Below the pieces are notes generated by a model. The model had not been told where the DNA came from. It did not search any database and saw only the letters and a list, made by a program, of their open reading frames with translations. Shown piece after piece: positions 20,597 through 54,947 of a DNA stretch of 64,000 bases (its first letter is position 1; each line of letters begins with the position of its first letter). This DNA is from Candidatus Shapirobacteria bacterium (GTDB taxonomy: Bacteria; Patescibacteriota; Microgenomatia; UBA12405), in assembly GCA_017991615.1 (NCBI GenBank), contig JAGOQF010000003.1:285-64284 (forward strand), in the 5' to 3' direction. Position numbers and translations under genes: made by a program.

Positions 20597-20640
20597 AGTG
20601 AGAAAAAGATACCAAAAGGTATCTAATAAGGTATCTAAAT
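20597..20640. promoter_or_regulatory. Operator-like module: AGTGAGAAAAAG, then palindrome AGATACC-aaaa-GGTATCT, then a direct repeat GGTATCTAA 12 nt later.
   Basis: Seen directly in sequence. AGATACC is at 20607-13. GGTATCTAA is at 20618-26 and 20630-38. The module lies upstream of cbrC-like on the minus strand and downstream of the methyltransferase gene. Confidence 0.5.
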
Positions 20641-20646
20641 TTTATA

Positions 20647-21453
20647 TTATTTTTTATATCCAATATACATTGCATGACCACAAGTATCTATGATTGATGG
20701 ATTTTCTGATGTTTCGTTAATTAAATCAACAACTTTATTAAACATATTCTTATCCTCTATATTATATAGTGAATCTTCTTTTTCATATCCAAATCCACGA
20801 ATTGATCTAATTGTGATTTTTTCAAATCCACTATTACTGAATAAATTTTCTATTTCATTTATTGTTGGATAATATCCTTCTTGGAATCCTTTATCTGATG
20901 AATTATTAAATTTACCAGATTTAAATACTTCGGATAAATTATTTATATCTACTTGTTCAGGATGTCTAAAATATCTATCTACTATTGCAATACTACCAGA
21001 AAGATATGGAATAAAACTTGCAAATATTTTTCCTCCTGGTTTTAATACTCTGCTTATTTCTTTTATACATTGTTCTCTTTCTGATTTTTCAAGCAAGTGA
21101 TATAAAGGTCCAAATAATAATACAACATCAAATTGATTGTTTTCATACATACTAAGATTTGTAGCATTAACTACATCACAAGATATAATGTTTTGATTAT
21201 TTTGTTTCTTAGCTTGATTAATCAAATCTTCGGATAAATCAGCTAAGTATACTTTATAACCTTTATCTGCTAATGGAAATGAATAAACACCTGCTCCACC
21301 ACCTAAATCTAAAATTACTCCGTTTGCTGGTAAATTATTTCCCAATATATTCATTGTCATATCATATTCTAACTTTCCACTATTATCATTTTGCAATCTA
21401 TTCTTTTCATCAAAATTTTTATAATAATTTTTTACTTTATTAAAATCTGTCAT
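20647..21453 (-). CDS. Class I SAM-dependent methyltransferase.
   Basis: VILDLGGGAGVYSFPLA is motif I (GxGxG). An acidic motif II (KVYLADLSEDL) and motif III (VVLLFGPLYHL) follow. The gene is very AT-rich (roughly 28% GC) with a strong SD (AGGAGTG). Confidence 0.8.
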   Translation of the reverse strand: MTDFNKVKNYYKNFDEKNRLQNDNSGKLEYDMTMNILGNNLPANGVILDLGGGAGVYSFPLADKGYKVYLADLSEDLINQAKKQNNQNIISCDVVNATNLSMYENNQFDVVLLFGPLYHLLEKSEREQCIKEISRVLKPGGKIFASFIPYLSGSIAIVDRYFRHPEQVDINNLSEVFKSGKFNNSSDKGFQEGYYPTINEIENLFSNSGFEKITIRSIRGFGYEKEDSLYNIEDKNMFNKVVDLINETSENPSIIDTCGHAMYIGYKK

Positions 21454-21479
21454 ATTATCACTCCTATATTAATTATATC

Positions 21480-21505
21480 AAAAAAAGACCAATTTTGGTC
21501 TTTTT
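21480..21505 (-). terminator. Bidirectional A/U-flanked hairpin AAAAAGACC-aatttt-GGTCTTTTT downstream of the HIT gene.
   Basis: 9-bp stem with A-run and T-run flanks. On the minus strand the stem is followed by T7. Confidence 0.45.
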
Positions 21506-21518
21506 AATCATTTTTCAG

Positions 21519-21564
21519 GGTATCTAAAAGGTATCTAATTCACGATTTTTCACTTTTTCTCACT
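21519..21564. promoter_or_regulatory. Second copy of the operator-like module: GGTATCTAA-aa-GGTATCTAA, then TTTTTCACT and TTTTTCTCACT.
   Basis: GGTATCTAA is at 21519-27 and 21530-38. TTTTTCACT motifs are at 21546-54 and 21554-64. The module is upstream of the methyltransferase gene on the minus strand. Confidence 0.5.
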
Positions 21565-21593
21565 TTGTAATCTTCTAAAACCCTTGATTTTAC

Positions 21594-21692
21594 TTATTTT
21601 CCGCAACACTGCTTATATTTGCGTCCAGAGCCACATGGATCTGAATGATATTTAAATATAGGCAAACTTGTCTCTTTTTTATTATTTTTCAT
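21594..21692 (-). CDS. Unannotated 32-aa ORF encoding a SEC-C zinc-binding motif peptide: MKNNKKETSLPIFKYHSDPCGSGRKYKQCCGK.
   Basis: I translated the minus strand by hand. It is too short for the provided ORF track. DPCGSGRKYKQCCGK matches the SEC-C consensus CPCGSGKKYKxCCG found at the SecA C-terminus and in YecA/YchJ. No obvious SD is present. Confidence 0.4.
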   Translation of the reverse strand: MKNNKKETSLPIFKYHSDPCGSGRKYKQCCGK

Positions 21693-21740
21693 TTTTTATT
21701 AAATTTATAAAATGTACTATTGCTGAGTAATTGTAGCAAA

Positions 21741-22187
21741 TTATAACTGTAAATTTTTTAATAACATTTTCTTCATTTTTTTTAAACCTTTTTCTGTCGG
21801 CTTATATTTTTCATTACACCTGATTTCTTTTTCAATCGCCCAAATTGCTGTTTCCGGTTTTGGGTCAGTTTTATATCTTGGAATCAAATGCCAATGTAAA
21901 TGTGAGTCTGAATTACCCAACAACTCATAATTCAGTTTTTTAGGTTTAAAAGTTTTTATTACCGCTTCAGCCACTTTTGCCATTTCTTCTAAAAATAATT
22001 TTTGTTTATCTCCTAATTTATATAATTCATCAGTATGAATTTTGGAAATAAAAATAGTGTAGCCGTAGAAATATTGATAATCCGCCAACACTACGTATCC
22101 ACTTTTTAATTCTTTTACAAAATAAATATTTTTATTTTGTTTAATTAGTTCGATTCTCTGACAAACTGGACAATTATCGTTAATCAT
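21741..22187 (-). CDS. HIT-family (histidine triad) nucleotide hydrolase/transferase.
   Basis: HLHWHLIPR is the HxHxHxx triad. A CxxC lies near the N-terminus. The gene is AT-rich. Confidence 0.8.
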   Translation of the reverse strand: MINDNCPVCQRIELIKQNKNIYFVKELKSGYVVLADYQYFYGYTIFISKIHTDELYKLGDKQKLFLEEMAKVAEAVIKTFKPKKLNYELLGNSDSHLHWHLIPRYKTDPKPETAIWAIEKEIRCNEKYKPTEKGLKKMKKMLLKNLQL

Positions 22188-34044: not shown

Positions 34045-34383
34045 GTGAAAATTAGTGATATTCAAAAATGGGAGAGAGATTTTTCCTTAAGAAAAGGTAT
34101 TGCTCAGGATGAGGAAAAATCACTTAAAATAGCCACATTAAAGTTGTCTGAAGAAGTGGGTGAAGTTTGTAAAGCAATCTTAGAAAAAAAATGGGAAGAA
34201 GTTCCTGCTGAAATAACAGATGTGATTGTTTTTGCTTGTAAAATTGCTAATATTGCAGAGGATTTCCATAATACTAAAAAATTAGAAAAAGTCTTAAAGA
34301 AAAAGTTGGAATATAGCGAAACAAGGAAATATAACCCCCAAATTAACAAAATGAATAAACCCCCTAATAAAGATTTCAAATGA
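34045..34383 (+). CDS. MazG-like all-alpha NTP pyrophosphohydrolase domain protein.
   Basis: GTG start. LKLSEEVGEVCKAILEKKWEE...DVIVFACKIANI resembles the MazG/dCTPase EExxE core. The gene is low-GC, and its AGA/ATA codon usage is atypical for this window. Confidence 0.5.
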   Translation: MKISDIQKWERDFSLRKGIAQDEEKSLKIATLKLSEEVGEVCKAILEKKWEEVPAEITDVIVFACKIANIAEDFHNTKKLEKVLKKKLEYSETRKYNPQINKMNKPPNKDFK

Positions 34384-44123: not shown

Positions 44124-44549
44124 ATGCCAACATCAAATCAACTTATTAAACGTGGTCGTAAGGCCAGAGTCAAGAAACTTAAAACCGGCGCTCTTCGAGA
44201 TAATTTCAACACTATCAATAACCGGTTTACTAAAACTATCAACCCTATCAAAAAGGGAGTGGTTACTGTTGTCAAAACTATGACTCCCAAAAAACCCCAT
44301 TCTGCCTTGCGAAAAATTTGCAAAGTCAAACTCAGCAATCGTAATTTAGTTACTGCTTACATCCCCGGTATTGGCCATAATCTTGCTGAACACAGTATTA
44401 TTTCTATCAGAGGTGGCCGGGTTCGAGATTTGCCTGGTGTTCGTTATCATGTTATTCGGGGTAAGTTTGATGCCGCCGGAGTTACTGGACGAATGCAATC
44501 TCGCAGTAAATATGGCGCTAAAAAACCTGGTGCCAAAGCCGATTCTTAA
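44124..44549 (+). CDS. rpsL: 30S ribosomal protein S12.
   Basis: Start trimmed to [23 protein letters not shown]-type motif present. Confidence 0.95.
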
Positions 44550-44581: not shown

Positions 44582-45064
44582 ATGTCCAGAAAGGGAGCCA
44601 GTAAAATCAGACAAATAGAACCTGATGCTATCTACAACAGCGTTTTGGTTTCCAAAATTATCAACGCTATTATGAAAGATGGCAAGCGCAATGCTGCCGA
44701 AAAACAAATTTATCAAGCATTGGAACTGATTAAAAAAGATTTTCCTAAAGAATCTGAACTTGAAGTTCTGGAAAGAGCCATCGAAAACATCAAACCTAAA
44801 ATTGAAGTTCGTCCTCGTCGAATTGGTGGCGCTGTCTATCAAATTCCAACTCCAGTTCGCGGGCTTCGTCAAAATGCTCTGGCTATCCGTTGGTTAATCA
44901 GTGCTTCCCGCGCTCGCAGTAACAAACAATATCATTCTTTTGCCCAAAAAATTGTCGCCGAGTTAAATGATGCTCTTAGTAACAGCGGTGCTGCTGTCGC
45001 CAAAAGAATGGAAGTCGAACGTATGGCTGAAGCCAACAAAGCCTTTGCTCATTTGCGTTGGTAA
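44582..45064 (+). CDS. rpsG: 30S ribosomal protein S7.
   Basis: PDAIYNSVLVSKIINAIMKDGKR is canonical S7. Confidence 0.95.
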   Translation: MSRKGASKIRQIEPDAIYNSVLVSKIINAIMKDGKRNAAEKQIYQALELIKKDFPKESELEVLERAIENIKPKIEVRPRRIGGAVYQIPTPVRGLRQNALAIRWLISASRARSNKQYHSFAQKIVAELNDALSNSGAAVAKRMEVERMAEANKAFAHLRW

Positions 45065-45077
45065 TTTGATTAAAAAT

Positions 45078-45107
45078 CAAAACTCCCCGATAATGGGGAG
45101 TTTTTTG
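45078..45107 (+). terminator. Rho-independent terminator AAAACTCCCC-gataat-GGGGAGTTTT plus T-tract after rpsG.
   Basis: Perfect 10-bp stem followed by TTTTTTG, 14 nt after the rpsG stop. Confidence 0.7.
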
Positions 45108-45129
45108 TTTAAGATTAATTTTTAATCTC

Positions 45130-46560
45130 TTGATTTTATGGTCAGATTTAGTCATACTTAAACAGTATATGTCGTTATTTTCTAAGCCCAAGGTAGTCAT
45201 CTGGCCTAAAAACAAATCTGTTGAGATTTATCTTAGTCGCAAAAATGATAATTTTTTCAGTCTTGATATTAACCTTTGGGAAGATTGCAGTGATAAAGAT
45301 CTCGAAGGTTTGATTTATTTTTTTAATCAGAACAAAATTACTCAGGCTTCAGTTTTAGTTCCCGATGATGTTGTTGTCACCAAATCTTTTGTTTACGACA
45401 CCAAAATTGATACCATCGACAAAAAAGAGGTTATTGGTTTAGCCTCCGGTTTTGTTAACTTTGATATTGATCCTGATTCTATTGAACACTCCCTTATTCA
45501 GGACGGTGAAAAAACCATTATCAATGCCGTTATCTACGACAAATCAAAATTTGATTGTCTCAAATCCAATTTGCTTAAAACTAACTTGGTTATCAATTCT
45601 TACCGTCCTGTTTCTGCCGCCGTCAGCGATGTTGTTTCCAAAATTTATCTTAGTGAATTTTTCCTTATCTATCCCTTAAACGATAAAGATTACACTTTGA
45701 TGTTATCCAAAAATAATCAGGTTTATCTAACCGCCAATTTTAAAGGTCCTAGTCTTGATATTCAAAAAACTATTAATTATGCTCAATTATATTTTTCCAA
45801 TCCAGTCACCAAAATTTATTATCCTGAATCCAAAGATTTGGAGATTATCACTTCCACCGAAATGGAAAAAACTTCTTACAATGAATCTCAAATTGCTCAA
45901 AATTCGAATCATCCCCACAATATTCCTTTACCGGTCATTGGTCAGATTGATGGTATAATCAAACCATCTCAAGATATTAGTTCAAATAAACAACCAAATA
46001 TGAATAACAAGAAAAATCTCATTCCCATTATTGCTGTTATTATCTTTTCTTTTGTCATCGTCTCTTTTGTTGTCTACTTTATTATGAGCAAAAACAAGTC
46101 GAAAGAAATTATCGATGGCAGTCAAATTGATTCTGATATTGTCCCTACCACCATTATTGAAACTGTCACCCCCGAACCGACTCCAACTATCGCGGAGATT
46201 AGTAAAGATATCAAAATCCAAATTTTAAACGCTACCGATATCAACGGTCAGGCTGCTACTCTCAAGGCTAAATTGGTTTCTTTAGGTTTTGAAAATGTCG
46301 CTGTTGGTAATGCCGCTACTTCCGCTACCACCAATACTGTTCAAACCAAATCAGCCACCACTTCAGCTTATTTTGAATCAATTTTAGATCAAGACTTTCC
46401 CGCCGCCTATACTCAAGATCTCAAAACCACCTCTGCTTATGACGCTGTTTTCACTATCGGCACCGATATTTCCGGTATGAAAACCAGTGCTGTCACTATC
46501 ACTCCCACCAAAACCGCCACCCCAACTTCCACTGCCGTCACTCCTACTTTGGTTGAATAA
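45130..46560 (+). CDS. Bitopic membrane protein with a C-terminal LytR_C-like domain.
   Basis: TM segment IPIIAVIIFSFVIVSFVVYFIM. The C-terminus (IQILNATDINGQAATLKAKLVSLGFENVAVGNA) matches the LytR_C pattern. Confidence 0.5.
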   Translation: MILWSDLVILKQYMSLFSKPKVVIWPKNKSVEIYLSRKNDNFFSLDINLWEDCSDKDLEGLIYFFNQNKITQASVLVPDDVVVTKSFVYDTKIDTIDKKEVIGLASGFVNFDIDPDSIEHSLIQDGEKTIINAVIYDKSKFDCLKSNLLKTNLVINSYRPVSAAVSDVVSKIYLSEFFLIYPLNDKDYTLMLSKNNQVYLTANFKGPSLDIQKTINYAQLYFSNPVTKIYYPESKDLEIITSTEMEKTSYNESQIAQNSNHPHNIPLPVIGQIDGIIKPSQDISSNKQPNMNNKKNLIPIIAVIIFSFVIVSFVVYFIMSKNKSKEIIDGSQIDSDIVPTTIIETVTPEPTPTIAEISKDIKIQILNATDINGQAATLKAKLVSLGFENVAVGNAATSATTNTVQTKSATTSAYFESILDQDFPAAYTQDLKTTSAYDAVFTIGTDISGMKTSAVTITPTKTATPTSTAVTPTLVE

Positions 46561-46586
46561 TTTAATCAAAAACAAATAATTATTTT

Positions 46587-46607
46587 CCCCGCTTCAGCGG
46601 GGTTTTT
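46587..46607 (+). terminator. Rho-independent terminator CCCCGC-ttca-GCGGGG-TTTTT.
   Basis: Lies 27 nt after the stop of the 45130-46560 ORF. Confidence 0.65.
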
Positions 46608-46610
46608 AAC

Positions 46611-46671
46611 CAAAAAAATCCCGGTAGTGTTTTGTTGTATTTGCAATTGTTTGCAGAATACCACTACCGGG
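46611..46671 (-). terminator. Minus-strand terminator-like hairpin CCCGGTAGTG...CACTACCGGG with a U-tract (complement of CAAAAAAAT) downstream of the NUDIX gene.
   Basis: 10-bp GC-rich arms with a 32-nt loop. Together with the previous terminator it forms a convergent pair. Confidence 0.4.
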
Positions 46672-46738
46672 TAAAACTTAGACCAAGTTAAAAAAAGATA
46701 AAAAAGAAAACTATAGAAATAAAGAAATAAAACGGTTT

Positions 46739-47437
46739 TTAAAAAATTATTCCATATTGGAACGCTACCAATGTTTTGGCAAATGCCGCAATGGCAATGC
46801 CGTCACAAGTGTTGCCGATGGCATCAATCGCCGGCAGGAATACAAGCTTTGACAGCTTATCCAATTCAGCAATCGCGCCCTCTGTGGCAGGTAAGTATAG
46901 TTGACCGTCTTTCTCTGCCAAGGCAAACCACTCTACCTTGCAGGCAAAGATTGTCACCGGCCAGTTGCCTTCCGGTTGTTTAATCCAGAAAGCTCGATTC
47001 GAAGTGAATCCTCCGACCTCAGTCAAGTTGTTGATACGAACTCCAGTTTCTTCCAAAGTTTCACGTTTGGCAGTATTTTCTGGAGTCTCTTTGTTAAGTC
47101 CAAATCCACCCGGCGGTGTGAACATCAGAGTTCCATCATCCACCAGTAGGCGCTTTTCATAGCCGCCAGCCAGGAATAGTTCTCCTCCGGGAGAAACAGC
47201 GTAAGGCACCATTACAGCGCCGCCGCTTTCTTCGAAAGCCCACTGCCCATAGACACCATTGTATCCCATGGTCAGTTGACCGAACCTTGACGACAACTTG
47301 GCATACCTAGTTTCGTCGATAGAGACAATCTTTCCAGAAATCCGCTTGCCGTCGTCTGTACTGATTGTCGCCTTACCGGCAAAATCAGTAAAATTCCAAC
47401 CTAAACTTTTTCCTTCCGGAACCATACCTAGTTTCAT
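46739..47437 (-). CDS. NUDIX hydrolase.
   Basis: The Nudix box is GGFGLNKETPENTAKRETLEETGV (Gx5Ex7REUxEExGU). The gene is conspicuously GC-rich (roughly 48-50%) in a window of about 38% GC. RBS AGAAGG. Confidence 0.8.
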   Translation of the reverse strand: MKLGMVPEGKSLGWNFTDFAGKATISTDDGKRISGKIVSIDETRYAKLSSRFGQLTMGYNGVYGQWAFEESGGAVMVPYAVSPGGELFLAGGYEKRLLVDDGTLMFTPPGGFGLNKETPENTAKRETLEETGVRINNLTEVGGFTSNRAFWIKQPEGNWPVTIFACKVEWFALAEKDGQLYLPATEGAIAELDKLSKLVFLPAIDAIGNTCDGIAIAAFAKTLVAFQYGIIF

Positions 47438-47778
47438 ATTTTAACCTTCTTTCTCCCAGTTCCATCTTTTTGATGAACGGGAATCTGGCTGCATAGTACC
47501 TATCTAACCAAATTCCCATTCATCAATTTTGGTCTAATTTTAAAGTGCCAAATTATTGTCTATAAATCAGCTTCTAATTTATTTTCAATAATTCACCCAT
47601 ATTATACCCTATAATATAGAAAAAGTCAATATTATATCACCTCTAAAAAATAATCATACAACTATATTTCACTCCACCTTCTTAGATTACAATTTTTCCC
47701 CAAACTAACCATGTGTTTTAGTTTTTAAAACTGTCAAACTTGAAACCCTACCCCCAAATGCGATAGACTATAACCACT

Positions 47779-48792
47779 ATGAAACTTTTAATTACAGGTG
47801 GTTTAGGTTTTATTGGTTCTAATTTTATTCGTTATTGGCTTACTCATCACCCAGAGGATAAAATTGTCAATTTAGACAAGGTTACCTACGCCGCCAATTT
47901 TAAAAGCACAATCGATATCGAATCAAACATCAATTATAGCTTCGTTCGTGGCGATATTGTCGATAACCAATTGGTTGATAAAATTTTTTCACAAGGCATT
48001 GACACTGTTGTTCATTTCGCCGCTGAATCACATGTTGATCGTTCTATTGACGATCCTTCATTGTTTGTCAAAACCAATGTTTTAGGCACTTACACTCTTC
48101 TTAGTCTCGCCGCTAAATATGGAGTCAAAAGATTTCATCACATTTCTACAGACGAAGTCTTTGGTAGCATCGCTCTTGATTCCAAATCTCAATTTAACGA
48201 AAATACTCACTACGACCCCTCCAGTCCCTATTCCGCTTCCAAAGCTGCTTCCGATCACTTAGTTCGGTCTTTTTTCAAGACTTTTGGATTGCCAGTTACC
48301 ATCAGTAATTGTTCTAATAACTATGGTCCTTACCAACATCCCGAAAAGATGATTCCTCGCAGTATTACCAATCTCCTTTCCGGTAACAAAATTAAAGTTT
48401 ACGGTCAGGGCTTAAATTTCCGAGATTGGCTTCATGTTGAGGATCATTGTCGGGCTATCGAGTTGATCCTCCTCAAAGGTAAAATCGGCGAAACTTATTG
48501 TGTTGGTGGTCTTAAAAAAGGCACCTCCAATATGGAATTAGTTAAACTAATACTTAAGCTTATGAATAAAGATGAAAATTCGTTGGAATTTGTCGCCGAT
48601 CGACCGGCACACGACAATTATGCTGTCAACTGGGACAAAATAAACAAAGAACTTGGCTGGCAACCTCAATACGATTTGGAATCAGGACTTAAACAAACCA
48701 TTGATTGGTATACCCAAAATGAATCTTGGTGGCAGGAAACCAAAAAAGAAGCCGAAGAGTTTTATCTCAAATTAAACCAAGTCAAAAAATAA
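47779..48792 (+). CDS. rfbB: dTDP-glucose 4,6-dehydratase.
   Basis: ITGGLGFIGSNF, YSASKAASD (YxxxK) and the extended SDR architecture are present. Confidence 0.9.
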   Translation: MKLLITGGLGFIGSNFIRYWLTHHPEDKIVNLDKVTYAANFKSTIDIESNINYSFVRGDIVDNQLVDKIFSQGIDTVVHFAAESHVDRSIDDPSLFVKTNVLGTYTLLSLAAKYGVKRFHHISTDEVFGSIALDSKSQFNENTHYDPSSPYSASKAASDHLVRSFFKTFGLPVTISNCSNNYGPYQHPEKMIPRSITNLLSGNKIKVYGQGLNFRDWLHVEDHCRAIELILLKGKIGETYCVGGLKKGTSNMELVKLILKLMNKDENSLEFVADRPAHDNYAVNWDKINKELGWQPQYDLESGLKQTIDWYTQNESWWQETKKEAEEFYLKLNQVKK

Positions 48793-49340
48793 TGCCCAAA
48801 TTTATTCAAACCAAAATTGCTGGACTTGTAATTGTTGAGCCTGATGTTTTTACTGATGATAGGGGATTTTTTATGGAAAGTTACAATCAGCAAGTTTTTA
48901 CTCAAAACGGTATCGATGTTAATTTTGTTCAAGACAATCATTCTCAATCCACCAAAGGTGTTCTTCGTGGTCTTCATTTTCAAAAACCACCTTTTACTCA
49001 AGATAAATTAATTCGTTGTCCTCGTGGCGAAGTTTTTGATGTTGCTGTTGATCTTCGCCCTGGTTCAGCCACTTTCGGTCAATATGAGTCGGTTGTTTTA
49101 TCCGAAACCAACAAAACTATGTTTTTTATTCCCAAAGGTTTTGCTCACGGCTTTTTGGTTCTGTCTGATGTTGCCGATTTTCAGTATAAATGTTCCAACT
49201 TTTATCATAAAGAATCCGAAGCTGGTCTGCTTTGGAATGATCCGGATCTCAACATCAATTGGCCTCAGTTGGATAATTTAATTTTGTCTGACAAAGACAA
49301 ACTTTGGCCCACCTTAAAAGAACTTAAGCCTACCTTATAA
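48792..49340 (+). CDS. rfbC: dTDP-4-dehydrorhamnose 3,5-epimerase.
   Basis: Start trimmed to MPKFIQTKIAGL, a TAATG overlap with rfbB. RmlC cupin motifs are present (RGLHFQ, FIPKGFAHGF). Confidence 0.85.
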   Translation: MPKFIQTKIAGLVIVEPDVFTDDRGFFMESYNQQVFTQNGIDVNFVQDNHSQSTKGVLRGLHFQKPPFTQDKLIRCPRGEVFDVAVDLRPGSATFGQYESVVLSETNKTMFFIPKGFAHGFLVLSDVADFQYKCSNFYHKESEAGLLWNDPDLNINWPQLDNLILSDKDKLWPTLKELKPTL

Positions 49341-49358
49341 CTTTATAAACTTTATAAC

Positions 49359-50249
49359 TTGAAAACTAAAATTATCGGTACCGGTCTCTCCGGTTTGGTT
49401 GGTTCTCGAATTGTCGAACTTCTCGGCGATAAATTTGAGTTTGTTGATTTTTCCTTAGACAAGGGCATTAATATCTTAAACAAAGACAGTTTATCCCAGG
49501 CTTTTGGTAGTCATCAGGATGCTACTGCCGTAATTCATTTAGCCGCCTTTACCGACACCAATGCTGCTTGGGAGCAAAGAGGGGATAAATCTGGTCTTTG
49601 TTATCAGCTCAATGTTGTCGGCACCGAAAATGTCCTTAATCTGGCCAAAAAAAATCATCAATACTTTATCTATATTTCTACTGACTTCGTTTTTGATGGT
49701 ACCAAAACCACTCCTTATGTTGAAACAGATACTCCACATCCGATTGAGTGGTACGGTGAAACCAAATATATCGGCGAACAGGTAGTTTTAAACTCTCGCC
49801 ACCCCTCGGCTGTGACTCGAATTACTTATCCTTATCGAGCTAAATTTGATCAAAAACCAGATATTATTCACAAAGTTTTAAACAAACTTCAATCAGGCGA
49901 CGTTGTTAAAATGTTTGCCGATCAAATTTGCACCTATACTTTTATCGACGATATTGCCCTTGCTCTAGATCAATTTTTAGACAAAAAATATACCGGTATC
50001 TATCACCTGGTCGGTTCATCTTCTCACTCTCCCTACGATATGTCTCGATTGGTTGCTCAAACTTTCGGTTACGACCTTAAACTAGTTCAACCTTCAAGTT
50101 TGCAAGATTACATCAATTCTCAATCTGCCGGCAGCCGTCCCTGGCAACAAACCCTGATCACTTCCAATCAAAAAGTTGTCAACTTGGGTATTGATTTTAA
50201 AACTCTGACCGAAGGCCTTGCCGAAATTAAGACTCAGCTATTATCTTAG
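49359..50249 (+). CDS. rfbD: dTDP-4-dehydrorhamnose reductase.
   Basis: TTG start. GTGLSGLVGSRI Rossmann motif, YGETKYIGE (YxxxK) and RmlD-like length. Confidence 0.85.
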   Translation: MKTKIIGTGLSGLVGSRIVELLGDKFEFVDFSLDKGINILNKDSLSQAFGSHQDATAVIHLAAFTDTNAAWEQRGDKSGLCYQLNVVGTENVLNLAKKNHQYFIYISTDFVFDGTKTTPYVETDTPHPIEWYGETKYIGEQVVLNSRHPSAVTRITYPYRAKFDQKPDIIHKVLNKLQSGDVVKMFADQICTYTFIDDIALALDQFLDKKYTGIYHLVGSSSHSPYDMSRLVAQTFGYDLKLVQPSSLQDYINSQSAGSRPWQQTLITSNQKVVNLGIDFKTLTEGLAEIKTQLLS

Positions 50250-51444
50250 CTATCTTTTGAGCTTCTTTTACTGCGTAATTAATTCCTCTGTCTTCAGGGT
50301 AAATCTGAGCAAAATTCATTTGATAAATTTTGTCCGAAATTTTTATTGGCGGGATTTTTTTAGCATAACTTGTCGTCACAATATGTTGAGCATATTTAAA
50401 TCGGAATATAAACATTTTACCTACCATTTTTTTGTCAAATTCCGGGAATATTTTTTTCAGATAATCAAACCAAACCTTGATTATTTCTTTATCGCTTTTA
50501 CCAAAAAATTCATGATCTTGTGGTAAATATGAACCTAAATAATAAATTTCCTTGTTTCCATAATTCTTTTTGTCAATCAAGTTAGTCTGTTGAACTACTG
50601 CCACAAACGGGGAATTGACATCATTTATATTATGCCAATAATATTGGCTTAAATTCTGCTTGCTTTCAAACACTACATCGATTGCTCCCAAATAATCAAT
50701 TCCTTTGGCTGGTCGAGTGTCAACAATCACATCATATTCTTTTTCTAAAAATACTAAATTTTTAATTTCAGTCTTCAATTTTATTTTTCCACCGTTCTTT
50801 TTAATCAACTTGGCCAATTTTTCTATAATTTTTTCAAAACCGCCATCAATATACCCCAACACCTCTTCTCCTTTTTTATTGGTTGAATTACCTCTGGTAT
50901 GAATTCTGGCCCACAACCAAGCCATTGACACTTTTTTATAAAAATCATGAAATTTACCCTGCAATAGTGGTTGCCAGATTACTTTATAAGCTCTTTTACC
51001 TACCATTTTTCTCATCCACTTATCCGCAGTTATTGTTTCGTATTTTTGCCAATTTTTATCAAGCTTAAGCCATATTGCCACCATTCCCATTTTTAGCTTA
51101 TCCATCAAACCCAAAGGTTTAAATCTAAGCAAATCCATTGCCGTCACAAATGGATACATTTTTTTATTCCAATACAATCCCACCGAACTTTTATACCAGC
51201 TAATATCTCTAATTAAACCAATTTCTTTAATCAATTTAATCAAATCCTTATCGGTTTTAAAAAAATGATGATAAGTTTGTTCCAAATTTACTCCGTTCAT
51301 TTTAAATCCTGCCATTAGTCCGCCCAAATTTTTCTCTTTTTCCAAAATAGTTACCTTATTGCCTTTTTTTGCCAACAAATATCCCAAGGTTAGCCCGCCC
51401 ATACCTCCACCCACAATTGCTATTTTTTTCTCTTTTATATTCAT
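50227..51444 (-). CDS. FAD/NAD(P)-binding oxidoreductase (amine-oxidase / UDP-galactopyranose-mutase-like).
   Basis: The N-terminal KIAIVGGGMGGLTLGYLLAKKGNKVTILEKEKNLGG is a GxGxxG dinucleotide-binding fold. The gene is low-GC (roughly 30%). Its 3' end overlaps rfbD convergently by 23 nt. Confidence 0.55.
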   Translation of the reverse strand: MNIKEKKIAIVGGGMGGLTLGYLLAKKGNKVTILEKEKNLGGLMAGFKMNGVNLEQTYHHFFKTDKDLIKLIKEIGLIRDISWYKSSVGLYWNKKMYPFVTAMDLLRFKPLGLMDKLKMGMVAIWLKLDKNWQKYETITADKWMRKMVGKRAYKVIWQPLLQGKFHDFYKKVSMAWLWARIHTRGNSTNKKGEEVLGYIDGGFEKIIEKLAKLIKKNGGKIKLKTEIKNLVFLEKEYDVIVDTRPAKGIDYLGAIDVVFESKQNLSQYYWHNINDVNSPFVAVVQQTNLIDKKNYGNKEIYYLGSYLPQDHEFFGKSDKEIIKVWFDYLKKIFPEFDKKMVGKMFIFRFKYAQHIVTTSYAKKIPPIKISDKIYQMNFAQIYPEDRGINYAVKEAQKIAKIIAES

Positions 51445-51472
51445 TTATTCTTATGGTATCATAGAAACAGTC

Positions 51473-51510
51473 GCTGCTACCGTGACTTTAATGGTAGCAG
51501 TTTTATATTT
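51473..51510 (+). promoter_or_regulatory. Hairpin CTGCTACC-gtgactttaat-GGTAGCAG followed by a T-rich tract, in the fusA 5' leader.
   Basis: 8-bp stem with an 11-nt loop, then TTTTATATTTTTATT. The fusA ATG lies about 30 nt downstream. Confidence 0.4.
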
Positions 51511-51539
51511 TTATTAAAGAAGTACCTACAATCTAATTT

Positions 51540-53651
51540 ATGGCTGAACAAATTAAATTAACCAAAAATCGCGACGTTCCGATGGAAAAAGTCCGCAATA
51601 TTGGCATTATTGCCCACATTGACGGCGGTAAAACCACCACCACCGAACGTCTTTTATTTTATACCGGTAATATTCATAAAATCGGTTCTGTTGACGATGG
51701 CACTACCACCACCGATTCTATGGCTCAAGAAAGAGAACGGGGGATTACTATTCAATCTGCCTGTGTTACTACCTTTTGGAAAGATTTTCGTCTCAATGTT
51801 ATTGATACCCCCGGACACGTTGACTTTACTGCTGAAGTCGAACGTTCTCTGCGGGTGCTTGACGGTGCCATTATGATTTTTGATGGTAATGCCGGGGTTC
51901 AAGCTCAATCTGAAACCGTCTGGCGCCAAGCTGACAAATATGGTGTCCCACGCATTGCTTTTGTCAATAAAATGGACAAAATCGGTGCTTCATTTGAAAA
52001 CACCCTCAAAAGTATTCAAGATAAACTTCGCGCCCCAGTCGTGCCGGTAGTTATTCCTGTTGGTCAAGAACACGGTTTTATTGGCGTTATCGATCTTATG
52101 GATCAAAAAATGATTATCTACGACAAAGATGAACAAGGTATGGAGTTTACTACCAAAGATGTTACTGACGAATACAAAGATGCTGTTGCCACTGCTCGAG
52201 CTAAAATGGTCGAACAAATTGCCGGTGAAGATGAGACTCTTATGGAAAAATTCCTCAACGACGAAGAAATCTCTGTTCCCGAACTCAAAGCCGCTCTTCG
52301 AAAAGCCACTATCAGCCGTCGTCTTTTTCCTATTTATTGTGGCGCTGCTTGGCGTAATAAGGGCATCCATCCTATCCTCGATGGCATTATTGATTACCTG
52401 CCCTCACCACTTGATTTACCGCCTGTTGAAGGTTTCAATCCGGAAAACAATGAAGTTTTAACTCGTCACCCTGTCAAAACCGACCCTCTTTCTGCTCTTC
52501 TCTTCAAAGTTCAGTCAGACCCTCACGTTGGTACTTTATCTTATGTCAGGATTTATTCCGGTATTCTTAAAGCCGGTTCTGAAGTCTACAATACTACCAA
52601 AGGCAAAAACGAACGGATTGGTCGCTTACTTTTGATGCATGCTGACAAAAGAGAGGGTATCGAGGAAGGTTTTGCTGGCGAAATTGTGGCTTGTATTGGT
52701 CTCAAAGAATCCACCACTGGTGATACTTTGTGTGATTCCAATAACATCATTTCTCTCTCGCCGATTCAATTTTCTGAACCAGTTATTTCCCTTTCAATTG
52801 AACCAATGACTGCCGATGATCAGGAAAAAATGGGCGCCGCTCTCAATCGTTTGGCTATTGAAGATCCGACTTTCAAAGTCAGCTACAACCATGAAACCGG
52901 TCAAACCATCATTGGTGGTATGGGTGAACTTTATCTGGAGATTGTTGTTGATCGTCTCAAGCGTGAATTTGGTGTCGGTGTCAAAACCGGGGCTCCTCAG
53001 GTAGCCTATCGGGAAACTATTTCTGCCAACGCTGACGGTGAAGGTAAATATATTCACCAATCCGGTGGTCATGGTCAATATGGTCACTGTAAAATCAAGG
53101 TTGAACCCAAAAATCGCGGTGAAGGTTACGAATTTGTTAACGCCGTCAAAGGCGGCGCTATTCCAGCCAACTTTATTCCTGCCATTGAAAAAGGTGTCAA
53201 AGAAACCCTTCAAAAAGGTATTATTGCTGGCTATCCTTGTACTGATATCAAAGTTACCGTTTACGACGGTACCTATCACGAAGTTGACTCTTCAGAAATG
53301 GCTTTCAAATTAGCCGGATCTTACGCTATTAAGGATGCCTTTATTGCCGCCAAACCTTTGGTTTTGGAGCCGATTATGAAATTTGAAGTCAATACTCCTT
53401 CAGAATTCTTAGGTGCAGTTATCGGTGATTTATCTTCTCGCCGTGGTCAGATTAACGGTACTACCGAATCCGGCAATTTCACCACTATCAACGCCGCTGT
53501 TCCTTTGGAGGCAGTTCGTGGTTATGCTACTGTCATTAGAAGTTTAACCCAAGGTAGAGGATCATTTTATATGGAACCCAGTCATTATGATCCGGTTCCT
53601 CGAGATATCCAAGAACAATTGACCAGTAAAACCAATTCTGAATCAAAGTAA
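51540..53651 (+). CDS. fusA: Elongation factor G.
   Basis: AHIDGGKTTTTER, DTPGHVDF and NKMD are present. Full five-domain length. Confidence 0.97.
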   Translation: MAEQIKLTKNRDVPMEKVRNIGIIAHIDGGKTTTTERLLFYTGNIHKIGSVDDGTTTTDSMAQERERGITIQSACVTTFWKDFRLNVIDTPGHVDFTAEVERSLRVLDGAIMIFDGNAGVQAQSETVWRQADKYGVPRIAFVNKMDKIGASFENTLKSIQDKLRAPVVPVVIPVGQEHGFIGVIDLMDQKMIIYDKDEQGMEFTTKDVTDEYKDAVATARAKMVEQIAGEDETLMEKFLNDEEISVPELKAALRKATISRRLFPIYCGAAWRNKGIHPILDGIIDYLPSPLDLPPVEGFNPENNEVLTRHPVKTDPLSALLFKVQSDPHVGTLSYVRIYSGILKAGSEVYNTTKGKNERIGRLLLMHADKREGIEEGFAGEIVACIGLKESTTGDTLCDSNNIISLSPIQFSEPVISLSIEPMTADDQEKMGAALNRLAIEDPTFKVSYNHETGQTIIGGMGELYLEIVVDRLKREFGVGVKTGAPQVAYRETISANADGEGKYIHQSGGHGQYGHCKIKVEPKNRGEGYEFVNAVKGGAIPANFIPAIEKGVKETLQKGIIAGYPCTDIKVTVYDGTYHEVDSSEMAFKLAGSYAIKDAFIAAKPLVLEPIMKFEVNTPSEFLGAVIGDLSSRRGQINGTTESGNFTTINAAVPLEAVRGYATVIRSLTQGRGSFYMEPSHYDPVPRDIQEQLTSKTNSESK

Positions 53652-53771: not shown

Positions 53772-54947
53772 ATGGCAGACACTTTTCAAAGGACCAAGCC
53801 GCACGTTAATGTTGGTACTATCGGTCACGTCGATCATGGTAAAACCACTTTAACTGCTGCTATTTCCAAAATTCAAGGAAGTGCCAAATCATACGCTGAT
53901 ATCGCCAAGGGCGGTACTGTGCGTGATGCTTCCAAAATCGTTACTATTGCTATCTCTCACATCGAATACGAAACCGACAAGAGACATTATGCTCACATCG
54001 ATTGTCCCGGTCACGCTGATTATGTCAAAAACATGATTACTGGTGCCGCTCAAATGGATGGTGCTATCTTAGTAGTATCTGCACCCGATGGGCCCATGCC
54101 TCAAACTCGGGAACACGTTTTGTTAGCCAAACAGGTCAACGTCCCTAAATTGGTTGTTTATCTTAACAAAGTTGATTTAGTTGAAGATCCCGAGTTTTTG
54201 GATTTAGTCGAAATGGAAATCCGTGATTTGTTAACCAAATATGAATATCCTGGTGACGAAATTCCTATTATCCGTGGTTCCGCTCTTAAAGCCCTCAACG
54301 ATGAAGCTGATGGCGTTGAATCTATTAAAAAATTAATGGAAGCTCTCGATACTTATATCCCTGAGCCTGTTCGTGAACTTGATAAACCATTTTTAATGGA
54401 AATTGAAGATGTCTTCTCTATCAAAGGTCGTGGTACCGTTGCTACTGGTAGAATTAATCGCGGTATTGTTAAAGTCAACGACGAAGTTGAAATCGTCGGT
54501 CTTCGTGATACTCGCAAGGCTGTGGTTACCGGAGTTGAGATGTTTCACAAACAACTCGACCAAGGTCAAGCTGGTGACAATGTCGGCATTTTGCTTCGCG
54601 GTGTTGAAAAAGATGATATCGAAAGAGGTCAGGTTTTAGCTAAACCAGGCACCATCACTCCTCATACCGAATTTGAAGCTGAAGTTCTTTTGCTCAAAAA
54701 AGAAGAAGGCGGTCGCCATACTCCTATCTTTACCGGTTATCGACCTCAAGTCTTCGTCGGTACTACCGATGTTACTGGAGATATTAGCTTGGCAGAAGGC
54801 ACTGAAATGATTATGCCCGGTGATAACGCCAAAGTTAATATTAAATTAATCAAACCTATTGCTATGGAAGAAGGTCAGAGGTTTGCTATTCGTGAAGGTG
54901 GTTTAACTGTCGGCGCCGGCGCGATTACTAAAATCATTAAAAAATAA
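53772..54947 (+). CDS. tuf: Elongation factor Tu.
   Basis: [18 protein letters not shown] and NKVD motifs. RBS AAAGGAG. Confidence 0.97.

What the first reader, a model, noticed from the sequence alone, without database searches (positions are those of the whole stretch)
45065..51539. str operon split: 6.4-kb mosaic insertion between rpsG and fusA
rpsL-rpsG end in a strong terminator (45078-45107). fusA-tuf resume only at 51540. In between sit a LytR_C-domain membrane protein, a minus-strand NUDIX gene with clearly elevated GC, rmlB-rmlC-rmlD (with rmlA absent from the cluster), and a minus-strand low-GC FAD oxidoreductase overlapping rmlD convergently. Opposing terminators bracket the NUDIX gene (46587-607 on plus, 46611-71 on minus). 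The three different compositional signatures in 6 kb argue for stepwise acquisition into a normally conserved ribosomal operon junction.
Basis: partly seen in the sequence, partly recalled or inferred. Interest (0 to 1): 0.5.

Follow-up and report, generated by a model that had tools for sequence, protein, structure and literature searches.

The report
Ancient clade-wide split of str operon
The 6.5 kb of cell-envelope genes between rpsG and fusA are real, but they are an old, fixed gene arrangement shared by the whole Candidatus Shapirobacteria lineage, not a recent patchwork of foreign DNA; only the small NUDIX gene sits in a changeable slot.

Summary
The layout is as described: rpsL-rpsG, a terminator, a LytR_C membrane protein, NUDIX(-), rmlB-rmlC-rmlD, an FAD oxidoreductase(-), then fusA-tuf. 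The "recent stepwise mosaic" reading fails.

- **Shared frame.** All 42 species-level relatives with S7 identity of 59% or more carry the LytR_C gene after rpsG. All 19 of them whose contig reaches fusA keep the frame LytR_C…FAD(-)-fusA, and 18 also have all three rml genes.
- **One clade.** On an rpoC tree these loci form a single clade. Other Patescibacteria have rpsG and fusA 60-200 bp apart, with one exception (L050, about 2.2 kb).
- **Composition.** LytR_C and rmlBCD match the window. The FAD gene's low GC comes from its amino-acid content, and its GC3 is normal. Its odd codon usage is shared by all seven minus-strand genes, because synonymous sites are strongly strand-asymmetric.
- **NUDIX.** Only this gene is GC-enriched. 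It belongs to a small, sharply bounded family whose named and mapped members are all Shapirobacteria, and it sits in a variable slot. The window's lineage lost a 424-aa neighbour gene from that slot.
- **Rewiring.** The split is transcriptionally rewired, with a conserved terminator after rpsG and a conserved promoter-like box plus hairpin that always accompanies fusA.

This is an ordinary but clean lineage synapomorphy, of modest interest.

The parts
44124..44549 (+). rpsL (ribosomal protein S12)
   Evidence: ORF. tblastn orthologues sit in the same position in all relatives.
44582..45064 (+). rpsG (ribosomal protein S7), last gene of the upstream half of the str operon
   Evidence: Pfam Ribosomal_S7, 168 bits.
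45079..45110 (+). Intrinsic terminator-like hairpin plus T-run after rpsG
   Evidence: 11-bp stem; fold z -4.4. A hairpin of the same form and position, with a different sequence, occurs in about 28 of 42 relatives.
45169..46560 (+). Membrane protein: about 285-aa N-terminal domain of unknown fold, one TM helix, an extracytoplasmic LytR_C domain and a Thr/Pro-rich tail
   Evidence: Pfam LytR_C, 34 bits (cutoff 22), found in 21 of 21 orthologues. Start codon fixed by the conserved N-terminus. Follows rpsG in 42 of 42 relatives.
46587..46607 (+). Terminator of the LytR_C gene
   Evidence: CCCCGC-UUCA-GCGGGG plus U-run.
46611..46671 (-). Terminator of the NUDIX gene (long composite hairpin followed by AUUUUUUU on the minus strand)
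   Evidence: I17; z -2.9.
46739..47437 (-). NUDIX hydrolase, an accessory gene in variable slot 1
   Evidence: Pfam NUDIX, 37 bits. Canonical Nudix box G111-x5-E117-x7-R125-E-x2-E129-E130-x-G132 is invariant in the family. dN/dS 0.12 against L081. The family has 34 proteins. Present in 4 of 32 GTDB species loci that span the slot.
47438..47778 (.). Divergent NUDIX / rmlB control region containing a 27-nt imperfect palindrome (47470-47526)
   Evidence: I1. 92-94% identical to L081.
47779..48792 (+). rmlB, dTDP-glucose 4,6-dehydratase
   Evidence: TIGR01181, 464 bits, above the 365 cutoff.
48789..49340 (+). rmlC, dTDP-4-dehydrorhamnose 3,5-epimerase; its start overlaps the rmlB stop by 4 bp
   Evidence: TIGR01221, 262 bits, above the 156 cutoff.
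49359..50249 (+). rmlD-like dTDP-4-dehydrorhamnose reductase
   Evidence: Pfam RmlD_sub_bind, 156 bits. TIGR01214, 154 bits, below the 224 cutoff.
50227..51444 (-). FAD-dependent oxidoreductase with a phytoene-desaturase / protoporphyrinogen-oxidase fold; part of the conserved core
   Evidence: NF005560, 419 bits. AlphaFold model pLDDT 92. Best fold match is 5mog phytoene desaturase, TM 0.83. More than 1,000 homologues; the top 120 are at least 55% identical and every named one is Shapirobacteria.
51452..51522 (+). Conserved fusA-upstream element: TGGTATCATA box, an 11-bp hairpin (51473-51501) and TTTTATATTTTTATT
   Evidence: Alignment A2. The covariance model hits once per locus, always just upstream of fusA, in 24 loci, and nowhere else in 963 kb. 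No Rfam match.
51540..53651 (+). fusA (EF-G), first gene of the downstream half
   Evidence: All five EF-G Pfam domains.
53772..54947 (+). tuf (EF-Tu), followed by rpsJ and the S10 operon
   Evidence: ORFs; orthologue order; gene calls.

Best explanation
The block between rpsG and fusA is a fixed, vertically inherited feature of the Candidatus Shapirobacteria clade (Patescibacteria, Microgenomates).

**History.**
- In the clade's common ancestor a compact module entered the rpsG-fusA spacer.
- The module comprised a membrane-anchored LytR_C-domain protein, RmlB, RmlC, RmlD and an oppositely oriented PDS/PPO-fold flavoenzyme.
- It has stayed there while the host proteins diverged to about 60% (S7) and about 80% (EF-G) identity.
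- Two or three flexible slots flank the core: LytR_C to rmlB, rmlD to FAD, and sometimes FAD to fusA or rpsG to LytR_C. Accessory genes come and go in these slots.
- In this genome slot 1 holds a NUDIX hydrolase from a family seen so far only in this clade.
- Slot 1 has also lost a 424-aa HD-like gene. That gene is intact in the nearest relative (L081) and broken in another (L082).

**Transcription (inferred from conserved signals).** The former single operon now appears to run as separate units:
- rpsL-rpsG, closed by a conserved intrinsic terminator;
- LytR_C, with its own terminator;
- NUDIX and rmlBCD, which diverge from a shared control region;
- the FAD gene, on the opposite strand;
- fusA-tuf-S10, with its own conserved extended -10-like box followed by a stem-loop and U-run.

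**Function (inferred, not shown).** The core probably serves the cell envelope. It would make dTDP-L-rhamnose from dTDP-glucose for a wall glycopolymer. The LytR_C protein would act in wall homeostasis or ligase recruitment, as the solo LytR_C proteins VirR and Cei do. The flavoenzyme may act on a hydrophobic, polyprenyl-type substrate.

For: **Shared frame.**
- Using S7 as query, 80 species-representative loci were fetched and the window proteins were mapped onto them.
- All 42 loci with S7 identity of 59-96% have LytR_C downstream of rpsG.
- All 19 of these that reach fusA keep the frame LytR_C…FAD(-)-fusA, and 18 of them have all of rmlB, rmlC and rmlD. L030 lacks rmlC and a clear rmlD.
- Six further metagenomic contigs reached through NUDIX homologues show the same order.
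- The minimal form is 4.9-5.4 kb with spacers under 130 bp (L008, L016, L030, L032, L035, L036).

**One clade.**
- An rpoC NJ tree puts every split locus in a single clade on a long branch. Patescibacterial outgroups L042-L049 and L069 have rpsG-fusA gaps of about 60-200 bp; L050 has about 2.2 kb.

**Composition.**
- GC3 values: LytR_C 0.34, rmlB 0.35, rmlC 0.27, rmlD 0.35, FAD 0.30, against a window mean of 0.32 (sd 0.054). NUDIX is 0.466.
- Resampling synonymous codons shows that the seven most deviant genes are exactly the seven minus-strand genes. LytR_C and rmlBCD have z below 0.
- At 4-fold sites, plus-strand genes are 85% pyrimidine and minus-strand genes are 59% purine on their coding strand. 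The same pattern holds for FAD against its neighbours in 11 relatives.

**Origins.**
- FAD homologues: 1,069 with E<=1e-10. The best 120 are at least 55% identical and every named one is Shapirobacteria.
- NUDIX family: 32-34 proteins, with nothing between about 371 bits and the E<=0.001 cutoff (about 45 bits) in the word-index search. In an exhaustive HMMER search the next hit drops to 162 bits.

**Slot dynamics.**
- The window-L081 alignment (about 90% identity) breaks only at 46563/46600, which is exactly the 424-aa gene. L082 carries that gene in two pieces.
- NUDIX dS against L081 is 0.62, equal to its neighbours rpoC, rpsL and rpsG (0.64-0.66), so it was co-inherited since that split.

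**Rewiring.**
- The terminator after rpsG is conserved in form with changed sequence.
- The fusA element is found once per locus in 24 loci. It stays with fusA when other genes separate FAD from fusA.

**Function.**
- Family scores are; the Nudix box is; the flavoenzyme fold is.
- Solo LytR_C proteins act in wall homeostasis and bind LCP ligases (PMC11832169).
- dTDP-rhamnose feeds wall polysaccharides in Gram-positive bacteria (PMC4931226, abstract).
Against: - Sampling stops at 10 kb from rpsG. It uses one genome per species, nearly all of them metagenome-assembled, and many record titles are wrong (for example 'uncultured Gammaproteobacteria'). Clade assignment therefore rests on my rpoC NJ tree, which has no bootstraps.
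- The sister lineage of the split clade was not sampled. There is a gap between EF-G identity of 81% and 57%, so the node of origin is not pinned down.
- The most divergent members vary: L030 lacks rmlC and a clear rmlD, and L041 lacks rmlB.
- The functional model is inferred from family membership only. No glycosyltransferase, LCP ligase or rmlA lies within 10 kb in the window or in any of about 50 relative loci. The pathway's first step and its acceptor are therefore unaccounted for.
- RmlD scores below the NCBIfam equivalog cutoff.
- The N-terminal two-thirds of the LytR_C protein has no recognisable family.
- Transcription units are inferred from sequence motifs alone.
- NUDIX keeps a GC3 excess in most hosts: +0.37 in L020, +0.27 in L087, +0.19 in L081, +0.13 here. 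Simple vertical descent does not explain this.
Confidence: 0.85

Rival explanations
1. One reading: the 6.4 kb is a recent mosaic built by successive horizontal acquisitions from three different donors (LytR_C/rml, NUDIX, FAD) into the rpsG-fusA junction of this genome or its close kin.
For: - Raw GC differs between genes: NUDIX 0.476, FAD 0.317, the rest 0.36-0.40.
- Terminators separate the units.
- The slot contents do differ between relatives.
Against: - The core is present in every one of 42 species-level relatives, down to 59% S7 identity.
- The core's GC3 and codon usage equal the host's.
- The FAD codon pattern is the pattern of all minus-strand genes and of all FAD orthologues.
- The close homologues of FAD and NUDIX that carry a name or were mapped to a contig are all Shapirobacteria.
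- No integrase, tRNA gene or flanking repeats were found.
Confidence: 0.03
2. The NUDIX gene alone is a horizontally exchanged allele. It would move between Shapirobacteria by homologous recombination through the conserved flanks, ultimately coming from GC-richer members of the clade. That would explain why it is GC3-enriched and patchily distributed.
For: - GC3 excess over host genes occurs in 9 of 11 hosts, up to +0.37.
- GC2 is also high (0.38-0.44).
- The gene is present in only 4 of 32 species loci that span the slot.
- NUDIX of L084, L086 and L087 is 68-74% identical to the window's, while their LytR_C is only 57-58% identical. The phylogenetically closer L020 has NUDIX at 63%.
- The gene's position relative to the 424-aa gene differs between L081 and L002/L020/L086-L088.
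- A possible recombination tract exists in the same locus: dS falls to 0.155 in rmlC, against 0.6 in the flanks.
- NCBI taxonomy lists Shapirobacteria MAGs whose names encode 47-49% GC. The naming convention is from my own knowledge.
Against: - The NUDIX tree is otherwise congruent with rpoC and LytR_C: the groupings WIN+L081+L002 and L021+L025 hold.
- dS of NUDIX against L081 equals that of the flanking genes, so there has been no exchange since that split.
- The trees are NJ without support values.
- No GC-rich donor allele was actually found.
Confidence: 0.4
3. The block is kept inside the str operon because it is co-expressed with, or acts on, the translation apparatus. Examples would be read-through coupling of wall synthesis to growth rate, or use of dTDP-rhamnose to modify a translation factor, as EarP does with EF-P.
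For: - The position has stayed the same across a whole clade despite active gene turnover in the slots.
- rmlBCD has no plus-strand terminator before the fusA-upstream hairpin.
- EF-P rhamnosylation by EarP is established knowledge from other bacteria, not tested here.
Against: - Conserved terminators after rpsG and after LytR_C insulate the units.
- fusA has its own conserved promoter-like box.
- No glycosyltransferase, EarP-like gene or efp lies in the 64-kb window.
- Conserved position can simply reflect the low rearrangement rate around essential operons.
Confidence: 0.05
4. The split is an assembly or binning chimera.
For: All sequences involved are metagenome-derived, and several carry wrong taxonomic titles.
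Against: The same junctions occur in more than 45 independent assemblies from different studies and assemblers, with graded divergence that tracks rpoC.
Confidence: 0.01

Closest known systems
Canonical str operon rpsL-rpsG-fusA-tufA (E. coli and most bacteria)
   Same: - The gene order rpsL, rpsG, fusA, tuf and the flanking rpoBC and S10 operons are all kept.
- The EF-G here is the sole, housekeeping-type copy in the region.
   Different: - rpsG and fusA are 6.5 kb apart, with five unrelated genes on both strands between them.
- There is a terminator after rpsG and a separate promoter-like element before fusA.
- In a survey of 305 genomes, the single-copy EF-G gene lay outside the str operon in only two cases (PMC3150367).
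Multigene insertions between concatenated translation operons in Gammaproteobacteria (Brandis, Cao and Hughes 2019, PMC6735719)
   Same: Lineage-specific insertions of unrelated genes into the ancient rpoBC-str-S10-spc supercluster, which are then inherited vertically.
   Different: - The insertions emphasised there (abstract and introduction) lie between operons. Here the insertion is inside the str operon.
- Here it is fixed across an entire candidate-phylum-level group.
dTDP-L-rhamnose (rmlABCD / rfb) clusters of rhamnose cell-wall polysaccharide loci in Gram-positive bacteria (review PMC4931226)
   Same: RmlB and RmlC meet the equivalog thresholds, an RmlD-like reductase follows, and the three genes are tightly packed in the order B-C-D.
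   Different: - There is no rmlA, no glycosyltransferase, no flippase or ABC transporter and no LCP ligase within 10 kb in any relative.
- The cluster lies in a translation operon rather than a polysaccharide locus.
Solo LytR_C-domain proteins VirR (Rv0431) and Cei (Rv2700) of Mycobacterium tuberculosis (PMC11832169)
   Same: - A LytR_C domain without the catalytic LCP domain, anchored by a membrane segment.
- Weak NCBIfam Cei hit. The family-profile search of the PDB gave only weak, non-significant matches confined to the LytR_C region: 6q10 (E 0.022) and 2m5y, 'putative tuberculin related peptide' (E 0.12).
   Different: - This protein has an extra conserved N-terminal domain of about 285 aa and unknown fold, plus a Thr/Pro-rich tail.
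- Sequence similarity is limited to the roughly 70-aa LytR_C domain.
Flexible gene slots (integration or recombination hot spots) flanked by conserved core genes
   Same: Slot 1 ranges from 2 to 2,661 bp and slot 2 from -11 to 4,718 bp. Their contents are mostly unrelated small genes that differ between species.
   Different: No integrase, tRNA, attachment repeats or phage or defence genes were seen. Turnover looks like gain, decay and deletion, not site-specific integration.

Membership tests
str operon (contiguous, co-transcribed rpsL-rpsG-fusA-tuf) | The four genes occur in this order on one strand | tested here: met
str operon (contiguous, co-transcribed rpsL-rpsG-fusA-tuf) | rpsG and fusA are adjacent (tens of bp apart) with no terminator between them | tested here: not met
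   The gap is 6,475 bp, with a strong terminator 15 nt after the rpsG stop. Outgroups have gaps of 60-200 bp without such a hairpin.
dTDP-L-rhamnose biosynthesis cluster rmlABCD | RmlB, dTDP-glucose 4,6-dehydratase | tested here: met
   TIGR01181, 464 bits, above the 365 cutoff.
dTDP-L-rhamnose biosynthesis cluster rmlABCD | RmlC, 3,5-epimerase | tested here: met
   TIGR01221, 262 bits, above the 156 cutoff.
dTDP-L-rhamnose biosynthesis cluster rmlABCD | RmlD, 4-reductase | tested here: inconclusive
   Pfam RmlD_sub_bind, 156 bits, covers the whole protein. The equivalog TIGR01214 gives 154 bits, below its 224 cutoff.
dTDP-L-rhamnose biosynthesis cluster rmlABCD | RmlA, glucose-1-phosphate thymidylyltransferase | tested here: not met
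   No NTP-transferase Pfam hit on any window ORF of 110 aa or more that was scanned. No G-x-G-[TSK]-R motif in an open frame in the window or in about 50 relative loci. The rest of the genome could not be searched.
LCP (LytR-CpsA-Psr) glycopolymer ligases | Catalytic LCP domain | tested here: not met
   Only the accessory LytR_C domain is detected, in 21 of 21 orthologues; no LCP domain.
NUDIX hydrolases | Nudix box G-x5-E-x7-R-E-U-x-E-E-x-G-U and a Pfam NUDIX domain | tested here: met
   G111...E117...R125 E126 ..E129 E130 .G132 V133 are invariant in 18 sequences. PF00293, 37 bits, above the 21 cutoff. The substrate is unknown; PDB matches are only weak and Ap4A-hydrolase-like.
PRK07233 / NF005560 FAD-dependent oxidoreductases (amine-oxidase / PDS / PPO fold) | Score above the family cutoff, an N-terminal FAD Rossmann motif and the PDS/PPO fold | tested here: met
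   419 bits, above the 252 cutoff. Invariant G12, G14 and G17 form the N-terminal GxGxxG motif. Model pLDDT 92; TM 0.83 to phytoene desaturase 5mog. The family itself has no assigned function.
Genomic island / mobile element | Integrase or transposase, a tRNA or att-site target, flanking direct repeats, patchy presence among close relatives | tested here: not met
   No tRNA gene in the window. No significant flanking repeats. No recombinase among the Pfam hits. The core is present in all relatives. Only the slot genes are patchy.

The most novel reading that the evidence does not exclude
The conserved element that always accompanies fusA in the split clade may be a new cis-regulatory leader that arose when fusA-tuf-S10 lost the rpsL promoter.

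- It consists of an extended -10-like TGnTATCATA box, then 8-9 nt, then a GC-rich hairpin with compensatory stem variants, then a U-run.
- It could be a promoter-proximal attenuator that meters EF-G, EF-Tu and ribosomal-protein output. Alternatively it could be a 5'-terminal stabilising stem-loop.
- A still bolder reading, essentially untested, is that the block is retained here because dTDP-rhamnose is used on a translation component (about 3%).
Probability: 0.25. Interest if true: 0.5.

Novelty: new member of a known kind. Interest (0 to 1): 0.3.

Why it matters
- **A clean gene-order marker.** A five-gene envelope module wedged inside one of the most conserved operons in bacteria is a rare genomic change. 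It can help delimit Shapirobacteria within the poorly resolved Microgenomates, and it can flag mis-binned or mis-titled contigs; several were seen here.
- **Operon repair.** The locus shows how an essential operon is rewired after interruption: a new terminator, a new promoter and a new leader.
- **Where small genomes still vary.** It shows where a streamlined genome still tolerates gene turnover.
- **A caution for composition-based scans.** In this lineage, strand orientation alone makes a native gene look foreign.
- **Limits.** None of this overturns current understanding, and the function of the module remains inferred.

Tried and rejected
- **Donor lineages for NUDIX.** I ran a single-sequence search and a profile search of 5.8 billion proteins, then an exhaustive HMMER search of 1.84 billion representatives. 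Only the same family of about 34 members was found. The next hits are distant (162 bits or less), and cluster look-ups gave no organism names. No donor could be named.
- **NUDIX as a cassette with terminal repeats.** Only short, chance-level repeats were found. Rejected.
- **AlphaFold on the LytR_C protein.** A single-sequence run gave pLDDT 36, which is unusable. The secondary-structure pattern faintly resembles an actin-like/PilM fold, but this is only a lead. Scanning 21 orthologues against Pfam found nothing for the N-terminal domain, and a PDB profile search matched only the LytR_C part, weakly.
- **Rfam over 44-54 kb.** Nothing relevant.
- **rmlA.** Not found in the window or in any fetched flank.
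- **The box TGNTATCATA as a general promoter form.** It occurs only once in the window, so it is not general.
- **An ancestral hairpin in unsplit relatives** that might have been duplicated by the insertion. None was found.
- **Literature.** No paper pairs Shapirobacteria with rhamnose. The general searches on the str operon and on CPR cell walls turned up no paper describing this split.

Full report
**What is in the sequence**

- rpoB, rpoC, rpsL (44124-44549) and rpsG (44582-45064);
- a LytR_C-domain membrane protein;
- a minus-strand NUDIX gene (46739-47437);
- rmlB (47779-48792), rmlC (48789-49340) and an rmlD-like gene (49359-50249);
- a minus-strand FAD oxidoreductase (50227-51444) that overlaps rmlD by 23 bp;
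- fusA (51540-53651), tuf, rpsJ and the S10 operon.

Family scores: RmlB and RmlC exceed their NCBIfam equivalog cutoffs. RmlD matches Pfam RmlD_sub_bind over its full length but stays below the TIGR01214 cutoff. The FAD protein is a clear member of the uncharacterised NF005560/PRK07233 family.

The three terminator-like hairpins are real and fold much better than shuffled sequence. Two details need correcting:
- The LytR_C gene starts at ATG 45169. Its N-terminus MSLFSKPKVV.WPK is conserved in 37 orthologues.
- The two 'opposing' terminators lie back to back between the convergent ends of LytR_C and NUDIX. They do not lie on either side of NUDIX.

No rmlA-type gene exists anywhere in the 64-kb window. 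The rest of the window is housekeeping: dnaK-dnaJ-grpE, nusA-infB, pnp, RNase J, ProRS, AlaRS, ftsK, sortase and mltG.

**Composition**

Per-gene statistics over 59 window genes:
- Means are GC 0.381 (sd 0.042) and GC3 0.321 (sd 0.054).
- LytR_C, rmlB, rmlC and rmlD are unremarkable (GC3 0.27-0.35).
- The FAD gene has low total GC (0.317) but normal GC3 (0.304). The deficit lies in codon positions 1 and 2, so it reflects amino-acid composition.
- NUDIX is the only high outlier (GC 0.476, GC3 0.466, z about +2.7).

A resampling test of synonymous codon choice gave an unexpected result. The seven most deviant genes of the window (z 10-37) are exactly its seven minus-strand genes, FAD and NUDIX among them. 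Every plus-strand gene has z of about 7 or less, and LytR_C and rmlBCD are below 0.

The cause is an extreme strand asymmetry at synonymous sites:
- Four-fold sites of plus-strand genes are T 0.53, C 0.32, A 0.10, G 0.05, which is 85% pyrimidine.
- Minus-strand genes are 59% purine on their own coding strand.
- The same contrast between FAD and its neighbours is seen in eleven relatives, so the FAD gene is equilibrated to its orientation.

The 'three signatures' therefore reduce to one, the NUDIX gene.

**Relatives**

With S7 as query, 80 species-representative loci with 10-kb flanks were retrieved from GTDB genomes. All window proteins were then mapped onto them.
- Every locus with S7 identity of 59-96% (42 loci: L001-L039, L041, L047, L051) has the LytR_C gene downstream of rpsG.
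- Every one of these whose contig reaches fusA (19 loci) keeps the frame rpsG, LytR_C, rml genes, FAD(-), fusA, and 18 have all three rml genes.
- Six additional metagenomic contigs found through NUDIX homologues show the same order.
- The next-nearest Patescibacteria (L042-L046, L048, L049, L069) and all other phyla sampled have rpsG and fusA 60-200 bp apart, or rpsG followed directly by tuf. L050 is the exception, with about 2.2 kb between them.
- An rpoC tree places all split loci in one clade on a long branch.

Many record titles are plainly wrong ('uncultured Gammaproteobacteria', 'Methanoperedens'). The consistent ones say Candidatus Shapirobacteria.

The most compact versions are 4.9-5.4 kb, with spacers of a few to about 120 bp. 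These compact versions include the deep branches. The ancestral insert was therefore the core alone.

**Flexible slots and the NUDIX gene**

The spacing varies widely between species:
- LytR_C to rmlB: 2 to 2,661 bp;
- rmlD to FAD: -11 to 4,718 bp;
- FAD to fusA and rpsG to LytR_C: occasionally enlarged.

The slots hold mostly unrelated small genes with no Pfam match, plus an HAD hydrolase and an MFS transporter in single lineages.

A 424-aa gene with a weak HD-domain hit commonly precedes rmlB. NUDIX commonly lies upstream of it and diverges from it (L002, L020, L086, L087, L088). In L081, the closest relative at about 90% DNA identity, the order is LytR_C, 424-aa gene, NUDIX(-), rmlB.

The window-L081 alignment breaks only at 46563/46600, which is exactly where the 424-aa gene is missing. 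In L082 the same gene is split in two. This is a decay-and-loss series within the window's own lineage.

Facts about NUDIX:
- It has a canonical, invariant Nudix box.
- It is under purifying selection (dN/dS 0.12).
- Its dS against L081 is 0.62, the same as rpoC, rpsL and rpsG (0.64-0.66), so it was inherited together with them since that divergence.
- Its family is tiny and sharply bounded: 32-34 proteins in 5.8 billion, and a single 50%-identity cluster in an exhaustive search, with the next hit at 162 bits.
- All named or mapped members are Shapirobacteria, so no outside donor can be named.

Two things suggest exchange within the clade:
- The gene carries a GC3 excess over its host in 9 of 11 genomes examined (+0.37 in L020, +0.27 in L087).
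- The L084/L086/L087 alleles are closer to the window's (68-74%) than host divergence predicts (LytR_C 57-58%). The closer host L020 has only 63%.

I regard intra-clade exchange from GC-richer Shapirobacteria as plausible (about 0.4) but unproven. The persistent GC3 excess is otherwise unexplained.

**How the split operon appears to work (inferred from conserved signals only)**

A GC-rich hairpin plus T-run lies 15-25 nt (sometimes 50-85 nt) after the rpsG stop in about 28 of 42 relatives. Its stem sequences differ between relatives. Unsplit Patescibacteria have no such hairpin between rpsG and fusA.

Immediately upstream of fusA lies a conserved element (window 51452-51522). It comprises TATGGTATCATA, then 8-9 nt, then a hairpin, then TTTTTATTATT.
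- Three stem variants preserve pairing: GCTGCTACC/GGTAGCAG; GCTGTTGC/GCAGCAG or GCAACGG; AAAGCGGG/CCCGTTTT.
- A covariance model built from 15 sequences finds one element per locus in 24 loci, plus a partial duplicate in L020. Nine of those loci were not used in building the model.
- The hit is always just upstream of fusA on its strand. There are no hits in unsplit outgroups and none elsewhere in 963 kb.
- The element stays next to fusA when other genes separate FAD from fusA (L024, L029, L037, L038). It therefore belongs to fusA and not to the FAD gene.
- It is absent in L030, L035 and L036, and Rfam has no match.

Three readings of the element remain open:
- an extended -10 promoter followed by a promoter-proximal attenuator;
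- a 5'-terminal stabilising stem-loop;
- a terminator for rmlBCD read-through, which has no other plus-strand terminator, with the true fusA -10 lying in the TATTAT run.

**Likely function (inferred)**

- RmlB, RmlC and RmlD convert dTDP-glucose to dTDP-L-rhamnose, a wall-polysaccharide precursor in Gram-positive bacteria (PMC4931226).
- LytR_C without the catalytic LCP domain is the architecture of mycobacterial VirR and Cei. These maintain wall integrity and bind LCP ligases through this domain (PMC11832169). The family profile gives only weak, non-significant PDB matches, confined to the LytR_C region.
- The flavoenzyme models confidently (pLDDT 92). It is closest in fold to phytoene desaturase (TM 0.83) and protoporphyrinogen oxidases, and by sequence to the uncharacterised Pyrococcus PF1083. 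A hydrophobic, polyprenyl-type substrate is a guess.
- The sortase and MltG genes elsewhere in the window fit a Gram-positive-type envelope.

Against a self-contained pathway: no rmlA, glycosyltransferase or LCP ligase lies within 10 kb in any relative.

**Comparison with what is known**

- The single-copy EF-G gene normally lies in the str operon. A 305-genome survey found two exceptions (PMC3150367).
- Multigene insertions into the rpoBC-str-S10-spc supercluster are known, but those emphasised lie between operons (PMC6735719).
- I found no paper that links Shapirobacteria with rhamnose, and none of the general searches turned up this split.
- The locus fails the tests for a genomic island: no integrase, no tRNA, no repeats, and a universal core.

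**Verdict**

The interpretation as recent mosaic acquisition is wrong for the core, and only weakly defensible for the NUDIX gene.

This is a new example of a known kind of event, a lineage-specific interruption of a conserved operon that is then fixed and rewired. Interest is about 0.3.

The most useful by-products are:
- the fusA-upstream element;
- the strong strand asymmetry that can mimic foreign composition;
- a gene-order marker for the clade.

Noticed in passing
window 51452-51522 (+); one copy upstream of fusA in L001, L002, L004, L008, L010, L013, L016, L020, L021, L023, L024, L026, L029, L032, L037, L038, L047, L051, L081, L082, L084, L086, L088: A conserved non-coding element lies just upstream of fusA: a TGnTATCATA box, 8-9 nt, a GC-rich hairpin with compensatory stem variants, and a U-run. 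It occurs only in front of fusA, only in the split clade, and has no Rfam match. It could be a promoter plus leader or attenuator, or a terminator for antisense rml read-through.
   Followed up: partly
whole window; 4-fold degenerate sites of 52 plus-strand genes versus 7 minus-strand genes: Synonymous sites show extreme strand asymmetry. Plus-strand genes are 85% pyrimidine at 4-fold sites (T 0.53, C 0.32, A 0.10, G 0.05). Minus-strand genes are 59% purine on their coding strand. As a result all seven minus-strand genes are the top codon-usage outliers. The pattern is shared by Shapirobacteria relatives and is weaker in other Microgenomates.
   Followed up: partly
window 19971-22187 (-): Three minus-strand genes (UPF0167, a class I methyltransferase and a HIT-domain protein) have the lowest GC3 in the window (0.18, 0.10 and 0.24). 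The methyltransferase has GC 0.254 and no G at all at 4-fold sites. These are stronger compositional outliers than anything in the finding and are candidates for real foreign origin.
   Followed up: no
window 46739-47437 and its orthologues in L020, L087, L081, L084, L034: The NUDIX gene keeps a GC3 excess over its host genes in most genomes (up to 0.61 against 0.24 in L020), even though it sits at the same locus and has mostly host-congruent phylogeny. The cause is unresolved: repeated intra-clade transfer, biased gene conversion or selection.
   Followed up: partly
window 48600-49300 versus L081 8100-8800: Synonymous divergence between the window and L081 falls from about 0.6 (rpoC to rmlB) to 0.155 in rmlC, and is 0.33-0.38 from rmlD to tuf. 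DNA identity is 95-97% in rmlC against about 89% in the flanks. This may be a recent homologous recombination tract.
   Followed up: no
L081 10849-12123; L082 6466-7664; L001 11943-13217; L002 13028-14302: A conserved 424-aa protein with only a weak HD-domain hit usually sits immediately upstream of rmlB in crown Shapirobacteria. It is intact in L081, split in two in L082 and absent from the window. Its function is unknown, and it may belong to the rml transcription unit.
   Followed up: partly
window 1076-1507, 7358-7966, 21741-22187, 34045-34383, 46739-47437: The window holds an unusual concentration of nucleotide house-cleaning enzymes in 64 kb: dUTPase, Ham1/ITPase, a HIT protein, MazG and NUDIX.
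   Followed up: no
loci L001, L003, L005-L007, L009, L011-L015, L017, L019, L020, L022, L024, L027, L032, L034, L036, L037, L047: Many public records carrying this Patescibacterial locus are titled 'uncultured Gammaproteobacteria' or 'Candidatus Methanoperedens'. The rpsG-LytR_C-rml-FAD-fusA order would flag such mislabelling.
   Followed up: no
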